A stretch of 64,000 bases of DNA, from the NCBI GenBank assembly GCA_965287045.1, contig OZ336876.1:37014001-37078000 (forward strand), written 5' to 3'. This stretch comes from Carcharhinus amblyrhynchos (Eukaryota). Positions 45,001-57,000 of the stretch are shown here, piece after piece (position 1 is the first letter of the stretch; the number at the start of each line of letters is the position of its first letter). Position numbers: made by a program.

Positions 45001-48000
45001 ATAGGAATTTGTGATTTTAATTTAGGCATCTTTTTTAAACCATTCAACTTGGAAAGTCCCTCTGATCAGTGCACTTTTGCCATAGTTCTTGAACTTTGGA
45101 CAACTGTAGACATACTCTAGTACTTTCTTGACACTTGTTTATTAGTGCTACATCTCAACAGATTATAGAATAGATATGTTTTTCCCGAGATGGTGCATTC
45201 CTACGCTCCCTCTCTCTCTCTCTTTTGCCTAATACAGGACTAACTGATGTCAGCCAGATATTCATATTGACATCATAGATGAGCATATCCATTTTGTTCA
45301 TTCAATTAAAATTAACTGTTAATAAACAATCCCAGTCATTGGGATCTTTGGTTAAAGTGTGCATGCACCATAACTAAGTTTTGCTTTGGGCTAACATAGG
45401 TGTCATAGGTATCTACTCTGTAAATGATGATGTATCACTGATATCAGTCAATCATGTATTAGATTCTCAAGAGAGAGGTTGGAATACACTGTGCTCAGGA
45501 GCAACTTTCCTAAAGTCTAACTACTAATAAACAAGTTTAAACAAGTACCATAGTATGTCTACAATCTTTGATTTGATTTATTATTGTCACATGTATTAGT
45601 ATACAGTGAAAAGTATTGTTTCTTACGCATTATACAGACAAAGCATACTGTACACAGAGAAGAAAACGAGAGAGTGCAGAATGTAGTATTACAGTCATAG
45701 CTAGAGTGTGGAGAAAAATCAACTTAATGCAAGATAATTCCATTCAGAAGTCTGCTGACGGCAGGGAAGAAGCTGTTTTTGAGTGAGTTGGTGTGCGATC
45801 TCAGACTTTTTTATCTTTATCCCAATGGAAGAAGGTGGAAGAGAGTATGTCCAGGGTAGGTGGGGCCGTTGATTATGCTGGCTTCTTTTCTGAGGCAGCA
45901 GGAAGTGTACACAGAGTCAATGGATGGGAGTCTGGTTTGAGTGATGGATTAGGCTTCATTCACGATCCTGTCATGACCCTATCTGTCCAATAATCAAGAG
46001 GAAGCGGTCTCACAACACCAGGTTAAAGCCCAACAGATTTATTCGATAGCACAAGCCACAAGCTTTCGGAGCACTTCCCCATCATCTCCATATCAATAAC
46101 CAAGATGATCTCAAGCCCTCAGTGGACTCCTCCACTCCCAGCCTAAAGAGAACATCGTATGTTATAGCATTAAGTAAAGAAGCTGATTTAATACTACTGT
46201 TCTTTTGTATGAATGCTTGATGCTGTTTCTCCACCGCTGTCTCAGGGTGTCTTTGATAGTCCCTCTGATCTGTGAATTATTGGCATGATTCTTGGTTATT
46301 GATATGGAGATGACGGGGAAGTGCTCCAAAAGCTTGTGGCTTGTGCTACCGAATAAATCTGTTGGACTTTAACCTGATGTTGTGAGACTTCTTCCTCTTG
46401 ATTATTGAACAGATAGGGTCATGACAGGATCGTGAATGAAGCCCAGTCCATCACTCAAACCAGACTCCCATCCATTGACTCTGTGTACACTTCCCTCTGC
46501 CTCAGAAAAGAAGCCAGCATAATCAACGACCCCACCTACCCCGGACATTCTCTCTTCCACCTTCTTCCATTGGGATAAAGATACAAAAGTCTGAGATCGC
46601 ATACCAACTCACTCAAAAACAGCTTCTTCCCTGCCGTCAGCAGACTTTTGAATGGAATTATCTTGCATTAAGTTGATTTTTCTCCACACTCTAGCTATGA
46701 CTGTAATACTACATTCTGCACTCTCTCGTTTCCTTCCCTGTGTACGGTATGCTTTGTCTGTATAATGCGTAAGAAACAATACTTTTCACTGTATACTAAT
46801 ACATGTGACAATAATAAATCAAATCAAAGATTGTAGTCATACTGTGGTACTTGTTTAAACTTGTTTATCAGTAGTTAGACTTTAGGAAAGTTGCTCCTGA
46901 ACAGTGTATTCCAACCTCTCTCTTGAGAATCTAATACATGATTGACTGATGTCAGAGATACATCATCATCTACAGAGTAGATTACTATATAGTCTATTTA
47001 CTCGTTATATTACCTTTTTATCAGCACACATCTTCAATATAGTTGCTGCTGTCTATACCAGATACAACCTCTCATTCACTGAACTTTTCAATGGATTCTC
47101 TACTGTGGGTGTTTTGACCTATTTTAGGCTGTGCCCACGTCTGCTGTTGCATATTTATTTGAGTAAGTCGGAGTTGACCTGCTGGTCCACAAACAAAAAT
47201 AGCAAAAGTACCAGTCTATGTACTCTTCAAAACACACACAACTACTGCTGTTGTTATTAATACCCCTTTCATTACACAAAAACTGTAGTCAAGTCTGACT
47301 GGACATCGGATGCTGAATTGGGTCTAATACAATTAGTCATACTTTGTTCTCTTTCTGTTTTTCTTCACTCACCCCTCCAGTTATTTCATAGCTGCCAGTG
47401 GCCTCATGTTACCCCACTCACACAAGTAATTGTTCCTTTTGCGTGGCCCCAGACAATGAATGTTGAGTGGTGGGTGCACTTCCCCTACCTGTGGGAAATG
47501 CACCCATCTCCAGCTCCTCAAAAACCGCATTAGAGAACTGAAGCTGGAGCTGGGTGAACTTCGGATCATTCGGGAGGCAGTGGTGATCATAGCAAAATGC
47601 TTCAGGGATTTGGAAACTCCGAAGAATGAAAATAGTTGGGTGTTGGTGGGAGGAGCTGGAAGGAAGCAGCCAGTGCAGGGACCCCCTGTGATCGTTCCCC
47701 TCAGCAACAAGTATACCACGTTGGATACTATTGAGGGGGATGACCTACCAGTGGTAAGCCAGGGTGACTGGATCTCCAGCATTGGGTCCATCCCTGTGCC
47801 GTAGAAGGGAAGGGGGGAGAGCAGGAGAGCAGTAGTAATTGGGGGCGCGATGGTTAGAGGGACAGATAGGAGGTTCTGTGGCAGCAAAAGAGACTCACGG
47901 ATAGTATGTTACCTCCTGGGTGCAAGGGTCTGTGATGTCTCGGACCATGTTTTCAAGATCCTTAAGGGGGATGGGGATCAGTCGCAGTTCATGGTGCACA

Positions 48001-54000: not shown

Positions 54001-57000
54001 GTTGGAATTATACCTGGTACAAAGGGAGATGGTCATTAGTGGTCAATTATCTCAGTCCCTGGACATTGCTGTAGGAGTTTCTCAAGGTAGTGTCCTCAGA
54101 CCAACCATTTTCAGCTACTTCATCAGTCAGATCGAGTCAACTTCAGCTGCTTCACCAATGATCTTCCTTCCATCATTAGGTCACAGATTGGGATGTTCCC
54201 TACTGATTGCACAATGTTCAGCATTGTTCCTGTCTTTTCACATACTGAAGCAGTCAGTGTCCATTTGCAGCAAGAACCTGAACAACTTTCAGGCTTGGGC
54301 TGCTAAGTGGCAGGTAACGCTCACTACAAGTGCTGGGAGTTACCATTGACCAGACACTGCACTGGAATGCAATATAAATGCGTAGTTACAAGGGTAGGTC
54401 AGACTCTGCAAAATCTGTAGCATATAACTCACCTCCTGATTCACCAAGCCTGCCTGCCATCCACAAGGTCCATGTCAGGAGTGTGATGGAATACTCTATA
54501 CTTATCTGGATGAGCATAGCTCCAATAACACTGCCAAAGCAGCATGCTTAACTGGCACCCCATCCATCACCCTCAACATTCATTCCCTCCACCACCAACC
54601 CACAGTGGAAGTGTGTACTGCAACAACTCATTAAGGCTCCTCAACAGCACCTTACAAACTTCTGACCTCTTCCACTTAGAAGGACAATGTCCACAGGCAC
54701 ATGGGAACAGCACCACTTGCAAGTTCCTCTCAAAGTCACTTACCATCCTAACTTGGAAATATATCGCTATTCCTTCACTGCCACTGGGTTAAAATCCTGG
54801 AATTCCCTCCCTAACAGCACTGTGGGTGTACCTACACCGTGTGACTGCAGCAGTTCATGAAGTAAGCTCACCACCACCTTCTGAAGGATAATTAGGAGTG
54901 GACAATAAATGCTGGTCTAGCCAGCGAAACCCATACCTTACAAAGGAATTTTTTTTTCCTGGATATTGCTGTGCAACCGGGGGGAAAAATACTGTATTAA
55001 AAAATCGGCAAGTTTGGCAGCGTCTGTGGAGAAGGAAACAGCTCTGAAGAAGAGTCATACTGCCTCAAAATGTTAACTCTTTCTTTCTCCACAGGTACTG
55101 CAGACCTGCTGAGCTTTTTTCAGCATTTTCTGCTTATATTTCAGATTTCCAAAATCTGTTCCATTTTGCATTAATAAAGTGTCATTCCGACTTCTATTTT
55201 TATTAAACACTTCCACTTTTAGTTGTTCAAAATTGGAGGTGAGGTCAAAAAACATTTTGACCAGATGGGGAGGTCATTTCATGACACCTTCAAGAAAATG
55301 ATCAACCAAAGATGGAATCATTAAGGTCCAAAGACATGTTATTAGCTGTATGGTTTGTCTCCAATTGGTGCATTCTCAAAAGTGCGTGGAAACAGAAAAT
55401 GGAGTTGGATGCTTTTTTGTCTAAGCTGTCACATTCGAAAACACTTTAATTCTTTCAGTGTTTCATTCCTTTCTTATGACATTAAGATAATATTAAATTA
55501 ACTCTTCCAGCAGCAGTTGAGGCAAAGGTCGCTAGATGTTTCTGAACGGCAATTGAGTCTGTTATGATTTTGTACTTGAAGATATTTGAAAGTTATTTAT
55601 GCTTGGATGCTTTTTTCATTTATCTATGTTGGAATAAATAATTCAGACTGGCCCAAAGTTTCTGCATCACTGCTCCTTTTTGTTTGGTGATATGAATGAA
55701 CAATAAATAGTCTCTTGGTTGTTAATTTTTAAAGAAATTCTTTGGAACACTTAATGCTTGAGGAAATATGACACAAACTGAAATGTGTTCATGTAGTTTT
55801 ATAACATTTCCTATTCACTGCCTTCCCCAAGTTAGGGGGAACTTCTGTGTTGTCAAGATTAAGTTATGTCTGACTAATCTAGTTAAATTATTTGAGGAGA
55901 TAACAAATATAAAATAGTTTTTATGTTTGTTTTGCATAGACTTCCAGAAAGATGTTCAATAAAGTTCCACTCTTGCGCTTCTTAGTAAAACTGAGGAGCT
56001 CACAAAATTGGAGATCACCTTTTACCTGACTTGAAAATTGATTGAGATGTAGAAGGCTGAGTCTGATTAATGAGGTGTGAAAACTGGTGTTCACCAGAGA
56101 TTTGGGAGGTGATTCTCCCAGCCCACTGTGCTGCCCAAGTGGTACAGTGGGCTGAGAGACATCAGTGATGGCTGTTTCATGGACTTCTCATTGGGCATCA
56201 CAGCCTTCGCACGTCTCCGGCACTAATCCAGAAATTGGCGCAGAATTGATTTGAATTTTGAAATTTCAATATTAACATTTGCATTCAATTGGTGGGACTG
56301 AAGTCTCCAGAGCTACTAACGTCTTCCCTCTCACCTAGAGTGATTCCCTCCAGCGGAGTTTACTCCTGCTTATGGTGGGGGGGGGGGGTTCGGAAGACCA
56401 GCAATGGGGGGTTGTGGGGCTGGCCAGCGAGCAGGTTGGCTAGCAATTGGGCTGGCCAGCAACCAGGAAGCTGGCAATGCAGGGCCATTGCACATGCACC
56501 GATCTTCACACTGACAGATTGGTGAATGCACAGTCACCCACTCAGCACTATGCTGCTGGCCTCTCAGGCAGGAGTAGGCCACCGCTGATGTCTCCCGGCC
56601 CACTGCACTCCTCAAGCAGCATAGCAGGCTGGGAGAACCACCCTACAGATCTCTGATGAACACCAGTTTTCACACCCCATTAATCATAGTCTTCTACATC
56701 TCAATAATTTTCAAGGTAAAAGATGATTTCCAATTTTGTAAGCTCCTCAGATTTACTAATAAGCATGTTATGAAACTACTGAACCACATTTCAGTTTGTG
56801 CCCAGAGATTTCCAGAGTAAATTCCACTAGGGCACTCTGATGCACAGAGTGTCGGAGATTAATTCTGGAAATCATGCCAAAAAAACTAATGGAATTTACT
56901 CCCATTTTCCCACACATTGAGGTCTTAGAATTTTTTTGGGAGAATCCTGGCCTTGTTCTGTGGCCTTGACTTTGCACCATATTTAATAATGACTTGGAGA

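What the first reader, a model, noticed from the sequence alone, without database searches (positions are those of the whole stretch)
45411..56952. Four independent local inverted duplications within about 11.5 kb
Seen: 45411-46105/46290-46982, 48628-48868/49153-49393, 53305-53385/53724-53804 and 55976-56135/56615-56766. Each is an inverted copy of DNA 180-480 bp away, and each sits in a different host element with different divergence. Inference: either a local hotspot or a lineage-wide mutational process (template switching or snap-back repair) that repeatedly makes short-spacer inverted duplications. Repeat masking would hide this pattern.
Basis: partly seen in the sequence, partly recalled or inferred. 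Interest (0 to 1): 0.7.

Follow-up and report, generated by a model that had tools for sequence, protein, structure and literature searches.

The report
Four local inverted duplications in shark DNA
Four stretches of 80 to 700 bases in this shark-like sequence were each copied backwards and pasted a few hundred bases from their source, which is best read as scars of DNA-copying errors rather than as parts of mobile elements.

Summary
All four inverted pairs exist at, or within a few bases of, the stated coordinates. They are far beyond chance, have sharp edges and show transition-biased divergence of 2.5-17%, so they are old and real. The window is elasmobranch-like, not human.

In each pair one arm is the in-place source and the other an inverted copy 184-405 nt away.
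- **Pair 1:** copies a repeat that already carried a nested retro-insertion.
- **Pairs 2-4:** lie inside three different LINE bodies. Intact relatives read straight across the pasted copy in pairs 2 and 3.
- **Pair 2:** its host LINE looks older than the duplication.

The best reading is DNA-level switch-and-return template switching, the four-point types 3-2-1-4 and 1-4-3-2. The copied lengths are at or beyond the top of the human range.

A local hotspot is weakly supported (P 0.02-0.18, post hoc). A lineage-wide process could not be tested, because no eukaryotic genome collection was on hand. Two other inverted structures in the window are not counted with the four: one is a Penelope-like element's own architecture, the other (a palindrome at 16.5-17.2 kb) probably is too.

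The parts
46290..46988 (+). P1 source arm, in place. It holds a few nt of repeat Y, a nested fragment of element X (about 46312-46396), a 5'-truncated L2-like LINE 3' end (about 46397-46842) and the 3' block of Y (46830-46989).
   Evidence: Y1 (45048-45328) matches 46251-46294 and 46830-46989 collinearly, with only 13 nt between the blocks in Y1. nhmmer E = 9e-8 and 0.005. Local scores 99 and 52 against shuffle maxima of 45 and 43 in 300 shuffles. The Y homology runs from this arm 39 nt into the spacer.
45405..46105 (-). P1 inverted copy of 46290-46988.
   Evidence: 95.6-95.9% identity, 21 transitions, 8 transversions, 1 gap event. Its inner edge does not continue into Y sequence. Both arms carry the same in-frame TAA in the LINE-derived peptide.
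46106..46289 (.). P1 spacer, 184 nt. Its last 39 nt are the 5' block of repeat Y.
48628..48868 (+). P2 source arm, in frame inside ORF2 of a + strand LINE (between the endonuclease and RT domains).
   Evidence: Matches residues 270-352 of the intact relative P0025 in the sense frame. ORF 48345-48890 is open.
48869..49152 (+). P2 spacer, 284 nt. It is native LINE sequence continuing the reading frame.
   Evidence: nhmmer matches the paralogous LINE at 9387-9644, E = 1e-13.
49153..49393 (-). P2 inverted copy, pasted into the same LINE and replacing a few codons just before the RT domain.
   Evidence: 97.5% to the source, 6 substitutions, 0 indels. P0025 and P0027 read straight across the site. 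The paralogue at 9495-10897 has 106 nt where this LINE has 340.
48145..50864 (+). Host LINE of P2 (AP-endonuclease plus RT type).
   Evidence: tblastn of P0025 (936 aa; Pfam PF03372, PF14529, PF00078). RVT_1 hit on ORF 49611-49973. 10 frameshifts and 2 in-frame stops in 812 matched codons.
53305..53385 (+). P3 source arm, collinear with ORF2 of a second, more decayed + strand LINE.
   Evidence: P0164 residues 393-492 align to 53317-53598 on the + strand, E = 4.5e-5.
53386..53723 (+). P3 spacer, 338 nt, native LINE coding sequence.
53724..53804 (-). P3 inverted copy, pasted into the RT domain of the same LINE.
   Evidence: 91.4% to the source. Relatives P0042 and P0043 need a single gap of 24 and 23 residues exactly here. 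The reading frame resumes at 53800-53844.
53317..54842 (+). Host LINE of P3.
   Evidence: RVT_1 on ORF 53879-54349. Protein matches.
55772..56172 (+). P4 source side. Segments 55772-55807 and 55977-56172 are duplicated. The 169 nt between them (55808-55976) are not; they are RT-coding sequence of a third, old + strand LINE.
   Evidence: tblastn of P0025, P0026 and P0027 hits 55816-55905 on the + strand, E = 0.002-0.01. nhmmer links the 169 nt to RT regions at 49667-49800 (E = 1e-4) and 39693-39562 (E = 0.022), with weaker matches at 26986-26882 (E = 0.028) and 9974-10090 (E = 0.41).
56173..56577 (.). P4 spacer, 405 nt.
56578..56800 (-). P4 inverted copy. The two source segments lie directly side by side, without the 169 nt.
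   Evidence: 81.6-85.6% (inner) and 92-97% (outer) identity.
45048..45328 (+). Y1, an uninterrupted paralogue of the repeat that hosts P1. It serves as the 'empty site' reference for the nested insertion.

Best explanation
Each pair is a mutational scar, not a functional unit. A DNA polymerase left its template, landed 184-405 nt behind on the complementary strand (or on its own nascent strand) and copied 81-701 nt backwards. It then returned to within about ten bases of where it had left.

The result is source - spacer - inverted copy, with the surrounding sequence otherwise collinear. [quoted passage not shown]

What is shown:
- the topology;
- which arm is the source;
- the collinear flanks (P2, P3);
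- for P1, that the event came after transposon nesting.

What is inferred: the enzyme and the setting. I favour a switch within a replication fork about 60:40 over snap-back synthesis at a resected double-strand break. The narrow landing distance fits the single-stranded stretch at a fork. The sequence alone cannot separate the two.
For: 1. Sharp-edged arms with a unique spacer. 0 of 8 flank or spacer comparisons were above chance.
2. P1: the right arm plus 39 nt of the spacer form a copy of repeat Y interrupted by a roughly 540-nt nested block. The uninterrupted paralogue Y1 lies at 45048-45328. Both arms contain the nested block and the same in-frame stop. So a genomic segment was duplicated after the insertion.
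3. P2: the source is in frame. The copy interrupts ORF2 where P0025 and P0027 and the in-window paralogue are continuous.
4. P2: the host LINE has 10 frameshifts in 812 codons. About 2.7 indels are expected if it were as old as the arms (P = 5e-4).
5. P3: relatives need one gap of 23-24 residues at the copy (2 of 7 mapped relatives show it as a single gap). The source arm is collinear LINE coding sequence.
6. P4: the left arm lies in LINE RT sequence of the + strand.
7. Landing distances are 184, 284, 338 and 405 nt, while copied lengths range from 81 to 701 nt.
8. Both event types are among those observed in the human-chimpanzee comparison (PMC5453318 passages).
9. Within 500 nt, 8 inverted against 2 direct HSPs of 40 nt or more. 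Over all distances, 55 against 46. No tandem repeat has a period above 35.
Against: - No outgroup or empty site was available, so no ancestral state is shown directly.
- All three LINE-hosted events have the copy downstream of the source in LINE sense. A reverse-transcription origin predicts this; a DNA-level origin gives it only 1 time in 4.
- The age argument for P2 fails if the arms were homogenised by gene conversion, or if the LINE was copied from an already defective source. With twice the expected indel rate, P rises to 0.05.
- The inner breakpoint of P1 (46290) lies only 5-22 nt outside the 5' junction of the nested insertion, an unexplained near-coincidence.
- The copied lengths exceed what is documented for human template-switch mutations. 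Most of those are 10 bp or less and the longest is 318 bp (10.1101/2021.11.26.470150 passages).
- Junction microhomology could only be inferred (about 1-2 nt for P2), because the native nucleotides are unknown.
Confidence: 0.6

Rival explanations
1. P2-P4 arose during LINE retrotransposition. While the second (sense) DNA strand was being made, the LINE reverse transcriptase switched from the cDNA to the displaced RNA, or to its own nascent strand. It copied an upstream segment backwards and then returned.
For: All 3 of 3 LINE-hosted events have a + sense LINE, an upstream source and a downstream inverted copy. This model predicts exactly that polarity. Source and copy lie within one element. 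Template switching by LINE reverse transcriptases during insertion is documented for L1 (PMC11702581 passages).
Against: It cannot explain P1, whose arms include non-LINE host sequence on both sides of a nested insertion. The P2 host LINE carries about four times more frameshifts than the arm divergence predicts. Three of three in one direction has a chance probability of 0.25. LINE sequence fills much of this stretch, so DNA-level events would often fall in LINEs anyway.
Confidence: 0.2
2. The pairs are built-in architecture of mobile elements: long terminal inverted repeats of DNA transposons or foldback elements, Penelope-type head-to-head insertions, or twin-primed LINE insertions.
For: Such architecture does occur in this window. 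The 12107-13247 / 14306-15411 pair is a Penelope-like element with an inverted 5'-truncated copy (PMC8557442 passages). The 16547-17225 palindrome ends on both sides at the natural terminus of element X.
Against: No target-site duplications flank P1 or P4 (read). The arms have no further copies in 64 kb. In P2 and P3 sense LINE sequence lies on both sides of the inverted copy and the copy breaks the ORF; neither twin priming nor terminal repeats give that. The P2 host is an AP-endonuclease LINE, not a GIY-YIG element. The P1 breakpoints lie inside repeat Y.
Confidence: 0.07
3. Assembly or library artefact, that is, chimeric or palindromic reads.
For: Inverted chimeras are a known artefact class (recalled, from no call).
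Against: The arms differ by 2.5-17%, with a transition bias (21:8, 4:2, 8:3, 21:6) and indels. That is the pattern of evolutionary decay, not of a duplicated read. The four events have four different ages.
Confidence: 0.03
4. Two independent insertions of the same family in opposite orientation.
For: This explains the SINE-like copies at 21136-21220, 22188-22271 and 22660-22745.
Against: For P1-P4 each arm's only match in 64 kb is its partner. Both ends of the two arms coincide. P1 spans three different elements. The P2-P4 copies sit inside the element they copy.
Confidence: 0.02

Closest known systems
Short-range template-switch mutations (four-point model; Loytynoja and Goldman 2017, PMC5453318, passages read)
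   Same: [quoted passage not shown] Types 3-2-1-4 and 1-4-3-2 create an inverted repeat. A few bases at the site are replaced.
   Different: Scale. Here 81-701 nt are copied after a jump of 184-405 nt. In human data most events are 10 bp or less and the longest is 318 bp (10.1101/2021.11.26.470150 passages). No sister genome was available here to show the ancestral state.
Kilobase-to-megabase replicative rearrangements (FoSTeS/MMBIR) and origin-dependent inverted-repeat amplification
   Same: Template switching at a fork that produces inverted duplications.
   Different: Those are described at much larger scale, and often with several switches. These events fall between that scale and the short-range class. 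Basis: FoSTeS/MMBIR are named in the PMC5453318 passages. PMC4689423 was seen only as a search listing and abstract start. The rest is recalled.
Snap-back templated insertions of polymerase-theta end joining
   Same: A 3' end folds back and copies nearby sequence in inverted orientation. There is a small deletion and little microhomology at the junctions.
   Different: Typical templated insertions are tens of bases (recalled, no paper read). No break signature can be tested here.
Penelope-like element insertions with an inverted 5'-truncated copy (PMC8557442, passages read)
   Same: Short-range inverted repeats of retroelement sequence. One such structure lies in this window at 12107-15411.
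   Different: In those, the arms are the 3' parts of two head-to-head element copies and arise at integration. P1-P4 are internal or mixed segments with one arm in place, and the hosts of P2-P4 are AP-endonuclease-type LINEs.
L1 twin priming (5' inversions; PMC11702581, passages read)
   Same: Inverted LINE sequence next to sense LINE sequence.
   Different: Twin priming puts the inverted piece at the 5' end of the insertion, with only 1-10 bp deleted or duplicated at the internal junction. In P2-P4 sense LINE sequence lies upstream of the inverted copy, flanks it on both sides in P2 and P3 (not shown for P4), and 81-241 nt are present twice.

Membership tests
Template-switch mutation (four-point model) | A fragment copied in reverse-complement orientation from sequence nearby | tested here: met
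   All four pairs.
Template-switch mutation (four-point model) | Switch and return: sequence on both sides of the inserted fragment is collinear with the unmutated form | tested here: met
   P2: P0025, P0027 and the in-window paralogue read across. P3: P0042 and P0043 need one gap of 24 and 23 residues. For P1 only the source side is shown. For P4 this is not shown.
Template-switch mutation (four-point model) | Order of switch points is one of the observed types (point 4 not before point 1) | tested here: met
   P2-P4 are 3-2-1-4 and P1 is 1-4-3-2, compared with the PMC5453318 passages.
Template-switch mutation (four-point model) | Ancestral state seen in a closely related genome | not testable with these tools
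   No eukaryotic genome collection was on hand. Genome contigs holds bacteria and archaea only.
Template-switch mutation (four-point model) | Short range and short length, as described for primates | tested here: not met
   Copied lengths are 701, 241, 81 and 232 nt. In human data most events are 10 bp or less and the longest is 318 bp.
TIR DNA transposon / MITE / foldback element | Target-site duplication flanking the outer ends of the inverted repeats | tested here: not met
   No matching flanks at P1 (45404 / 46989) or P4 (55771 / 56801), read. Outer flanks show no similarity beyond chance.
TIR DNA transposon / MITE / foldback element | Dispersed copies with the same ends | tested here: inconclusive
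   None in the 64-kb window. The genome could not be searched.
Penelope-like element head-to-head insertion | Element encodes a PLE-type RT and a GIY-YIG endonuclease; the arms are 3' parts of two copies | tested here: not met
   The closest relative of the P2 host carries Exo_endo_phos plus RVT_1. The arms of P2-P4 are internal ORF2 segments. By contrast, the 12107-15411 pair shows GIY-YIG weakly in Pfam (E = 0.034, below the cut-off). In the Atlas its first hit scores 0.96, and 23 of 30 hits are clusters where 13-56% of members carry PF01541.
L1-type twin priming | Inverted segment at the 5' end of the insertion, without sense element sequence upstream of it | tested here: not met
   Sense LINE sequence lies upstream of the inverted copy in P2, P3 and P4.

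The most novel reading that the evidence does not exclude
Elasmobranch genomes (or this chromosomal region) undergo mid-scale template-switch inverted duplication at a rate far above that known from primates. The events copy 100-700 nt after a jump of 200-400 nt. They seed long hairpin-forming loci inside LINE transcripts and survive for tens of millions of years.

The opposite direction of P1 compared with P2-P4 would also fit forks diverging from a replication start zone between 46,988 and 48,628.
Probability: 0.25. Interest if true: 0.65.

Novelty: new member of a known kind. Interest (0 to 1): 0.45.

Why it matters
- **An intermediate size class.** If the density seen here holds genome-wide, it marks a class of template-switch mutation between the 10-bp events catalogued in primates and the kilobase rearrangements of disease genetics. 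It would sit in a slowly evolving, repeat-rich vertebrate genome.
- **Long hairpins.** Each event creates a long hairpin, for example a 241-bp stem inside a LINE transcript. Such hairpins are possible raw material for double-stranded RNA and small-RNA loci. Template switching has been proposed as a source of new hairpins and miRNAs (PMC8794818 and 10.1101/2023.04.19.537475, seen as listing and abstract starts only).
- **Annotation.** Repeat masking and consensus-based transposon annotation hide or misread these structures.
- **Counting.** A genome-wide count must first remove Penelope-type inverted insertions.

Tried and rejected
- **Hammerhead ribozyme lead** for element X and for the Penelope-like 3' region. 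Rfam gave 0 matches at gathering score and no hammerhead among 3 and 6 weak matches at E up to 10. My own minimal-hammerhead descriptor gave 0 hits with up to 1 mismatch; shuffles averaged 0.05. Not confirmed. The resemblance I saw by eye rests on recall.
- **tRNA-derived SINE heads.** ARAGORN found 0 genes.
- **Class of the P1 LINE-like peptide.** The Atlas and the protein search (23 of 24 candidates significant, 7 of 23 with PF09004, none with an RT domain) did not show which LINE clade it belongs to. 'L2-like' is my recollection.
- **Close relatives of the P3 host.** The word-index search found none (0 of 728 candidates). The exhaustive search gave only distant ones (0 at E up to 1e-30), so the P3 junction is known to a few codons only.
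- **Protein-level scan for older hidden inverted duplications in LINE bodies.** 44 long proteins and 449 HSPs recovered only P2.
- **Inverted similarity beyond the arm edges.** None found.
- **Literature.** A search for shark plus inverted duplication returned nothing on this subject among the 12 papers listed of 457. A search combining retrotransposon, template switching and snap-back listed no paper describing LINE-internal inverted duplications (6 listed of 8). These two searches are the only basis for saying I found it not in print.

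
Full report
**Origin of the window.** The window holds no N, no tRNA gene and no Rfam match at gathering score. The only named relatives of its transposon-derived proteins come from cartilaginous fishes. These are Pristis pectinata and Scyliorhinus torazame and Heterodontus francisci (3 named of 8 hits). I take the window for elasmobranch DNA, not human. No spliced gene model was needed.

The repeat finder and self-BLASTN recover all four pairs at, or within a few bases of, the stated coordinates.

| Pair | Arms | Length | Identity | Spacer |
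|---|---|---|---|---|
| P1 | 45405-46105 / 46290-46988 | 701 columns | 95.6% | 184 |
| P2 | 48628-48868 / 49153-49393 | 241 nt | 97.5% | 284 |
| P3 | 53305-53385 / 53724-53804 | 81 nt | 91.4% | 338 |
| P4 | 55977-56172 / 56578-56764, plus outer 55772-55807 / 56765-56800 | 196 columns + 36 nt | about 82% | 405 |

- E-values run from 1e-25 to 0.0.
- Reversed-only and complemented-only controls give no HSP of 40 nt or more at any distance.
- Apart from a 73-77-nt motif inside the P1 arms, each arm's only match in the 64 kb is its partner.
- The edges are sharp. In 0 of 8 comparisons of outer flanks or spacer halves did inverted similarity exceed shuffles.
- Differences between arms are transition-biased (21:8, 4:2, 8:3, 21:6) and include indels. 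This is evolutionary decay, not an assembly artefact.
- K2P distances are 0.043, 0.025, about 0.09-0.14 and 0.165, so the four events have four different ages.

**P1.**
- A repeat I call Y has an uninterrupted copy, Y1, at 45048-45328.
- Its 5' block matches 46251-46294 and its 3' block matches 46830-46989, in the same order and orientation. The blocks are 13 nt apart in Y1 and about 540 nt apart at P1.
- Support: nhmmer E = 0.005 and 9e-8; local scores 52 and 99 against shuffle maxima of 43 and 45 in 300 shuffles.
- The intervening block consists of two parts. One is the terminal 84-97 nt of an element X, the same terminus that ends both arms of the palindrome at 16547-17225. The other is a 5'-truncated LINE 3' end encoding a PF09004-type peptide. 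'L2-like' is my recollection.
- The Y homology runs from the right arm 39 nt into the spacer. The left arm's inner edge leads into unrelated sequence.
- So the right arm is in place and the left arm is the inverted copy. The copied segment already contained a nested retro-insertion and an in-frame stop shared by both arms.
- P1 is therefore a DNA-level duplication that came after the insertion. It is neither a transposon with terminal repeats nor a product of retrotransposition.
- One thing stays unexplained. The inner breakpoint (46290) lies only 5-22 nt outside the 5' junction of the nested block.

**P2.**
- The host is a + strand LINE (48145-50864).
- Its closest relative P0025 (936 aa, 84% over the query) carries Exo_endo_phos and RVT_1 domains.
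- The left arm matches P0025 residues 270-352 in the sense frame, and the spacer continues that frame. The right arm is the same residues on the minus strand, placed just before the RT domain where P0025 and P0027 are continuous.
- A 66%-identical paralogue in the window (9495-10897) has 106 nt where this LINE has 340. So about 241 nt were inserted and roughly 6-10 nt lost.
- A frameshift-aware alignment finds 10 frameshifts and 2 in-frame stops in 812 matched codons.
- The arm alignments give 21 indel events per 234 substitutions, and the P2 arms differ by 6 substitutions in 482 nt. From these rates only about 2.7 indels are expected if the LINE were as old as the duplication (P = 5e-4; 0.05 at twice the rate).
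- This suggests the duplication came well after the insertion.
- Caveat: gene conversion between arms, or a defective source element, would mimic this.

**P3.**
- The host is a second, more decayed + strand LINE (RVT_1 on ORF 53879-54349).
- The left arm is collinear ORF2 sequence (P0164 residues 393-492 on 53317-53598, E = 4.5e-5).
- Seven relatives were mapped.
  - P0042 and P0043 span the site with a single gap of 24 and 23 residues exactly at the inverted copy.
  - P0034 shows 41, which includes a deletion of its own.
  - P0038 and P0045 split the gap.
  - The main alignments of P0037 and P0046 begin downstream; P0037 has a separate short match where the frame resumes at 53800-53844.
- About three or four codons are missing at the site. 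Relatives are only 30-50% identical, so the junction is known to a few codons only.

**P4.**
- The 169 nt present only on the left (55808-55976) are LINE RT sequence of the + strand. tblastn hits 55816-55905 with E = 0.002-0.01, and nhmmer links it to four RT regions of the window.
- So the left arm is the source in a third, old LINE. The right arm is the inverted copy, in which the two source segments abut without the 169 nt. That reflects either a second jump during copying or a later deletion.
- No target-site duplication flanks the structure (read).

**Common pattern.**
- In all four, one arm is in place. The copy lies 184, 284, 338 or 405 nt from the source, and the copied length varies from 81 to 701 nt (one search lists the numbers).
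- In the four-point model, P2-P4 are type 3-2-1-4 and P1 is the mirror type 1-4-3-2. Together these are the types that create an inverted repeat, 31% of high-confidence human-chimpanzee events (PMC5453318 passages).
- The scale is unusual. In human assemblies most events are 10 bp or less and the longest is 318 bp (10.1101/2021.11.26.470150 passages). The length figures there sit partly in supplements I could not open.
- I favour a switch inside a replication fork, because the landing distance is narrow and of the order of the single-stranded stretch on the lagging template. This is inference from established knowledge. Snap-back synthesis at a resected break gives the same product and cannot be excluded.

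**Main rival.**
- All 3 of 3 LINE-hosted events have the copy downstream of the source in LINE sense.
- This is what a switch by the LINE reverse transcriptase during second-strand synthesis predicts. A DNA-level process gives it with probability 0.25.
- P1 cannot be explained this way, and the P2 age argument speaks against it. For P3 and P4 it remains open.
- A genome-wide polarity count would decide.

**Hotspot or lineage-wide?**
- Within 500 nt the window has 8 inverted against 2 direct HSPs of 40 nt or more (one-sided binomial 0.055). Over all distances it has 55 against 46.
- No tandem repeat has a period above 35.
- Clustering of the four within 11.4 kb has P = 0.02 if they are the only events. 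It is 0.08-0.18 if one or two further events elsewhere are admitted, and the test is post hoc.
- Genome-wide density, family consensus sequences, orthologous empty sites and other vertebrates therefore all stayed unchecked.

**Other inverted structures in the window have a different cause.**
- The 12107-13247 / 14306-15411 pair (about 85-88%, spacer 1059) is a Penelope-like element with an inverted 5'-truncated copy.
  - Its ORFs show GIY-YIG weakly in Pfam (E = 0.034, below the cut-off).
  - In the Atlas, 23 of 30 hits are clusters in which 13-56% of members carry PF01541.
  - The arrangement is the one described for PLEs (PMC8557442 passages).
- The 16547-17225 palindrome (arms about 312 nt, 89%) ends on both sides at the natural terminus of element X. 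It is therefore more likely linked to insertion.
- The SINE-like copies at 21-22.7 kb are ordinary dispersed repeats.

**Verdict.** The events are new examples of a known mutational class, at an unusual size. Their significance depends on a genome-wide census that could not be run here.

Noticed in passing
window 12107-15411: Penelope-like retroelement in the classic head-to-head arrangement. A longer + strand copy (about 13206-15411) is preceded by an inverted 5'-truncated copy (12107-13247). The arms are about 85% (BLASTN) to 88% (ungapped columns) identical and the spacer is 1059 nt. GIY-YIG is only weakly detected by Pfam but supported by the Atlas.
   Followed up: partly
window 16547-17225: Near-complete palindrome of an unclassified element X: arms about 312 nt, 89% identical, centre about 55 nt. 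Both outer ends coincide with the same X terminus that abuts the LINE fragment inside P1. By eye X and the PLE 3' region resemble minimal hammerhead motifs, but neither Rfam nor my own descriptor confirmed this.
   Followed up: partly
window 46295-46842 (and its inverted copy): The block nested in repeat Y consists of an X 3'-terminal fragment joined directly to a 5'-truncated LINE 3' end in the same orientation. It looks like a chimeric retrocopy, made when the reverse transcriptase switched from LINE RNA to X RNA.
   Followed up: no
window 46290: The inner breakpoint of P1 lies only 5-22 nt outside the 5' junction of the nested X/LINE block. By chance this is expected roughly 1 time in 20. 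Unexplained.
   Followed up: partly
window 58612-59163 (+): Uninterrupted 183-aa frame with a strong Ribosomal_S13/S18 match (E = 2e-31). Probably an intronless processed copy of an RPS18-like gene.
   Followed up: no
window 24442-24483, 11584-11619, 11745-11815: Three short hairpin-forming palindromes (stems about 15-30 nt) of the size typical for classical short template-switch events.
   Followed up: no
window 48628-48868 versus 49153-49393: At all 3 amino-acid differences between the P2 arms, the in-place arm keeps the residue found in at least one relative and the inverted copy carries the change. The number is too small to show error-prone copying.
   Followed up: no
window 31905-32107: Two tRNA-like SINE heads in tandem, 39 nt apart and 87% identical. 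This is one of only two direct repeats of 40 nt or more with a spacer of 500 nt or less in the window; the other is 22109-22296 / 22580-22770, 75% identical.
   Followed up: no
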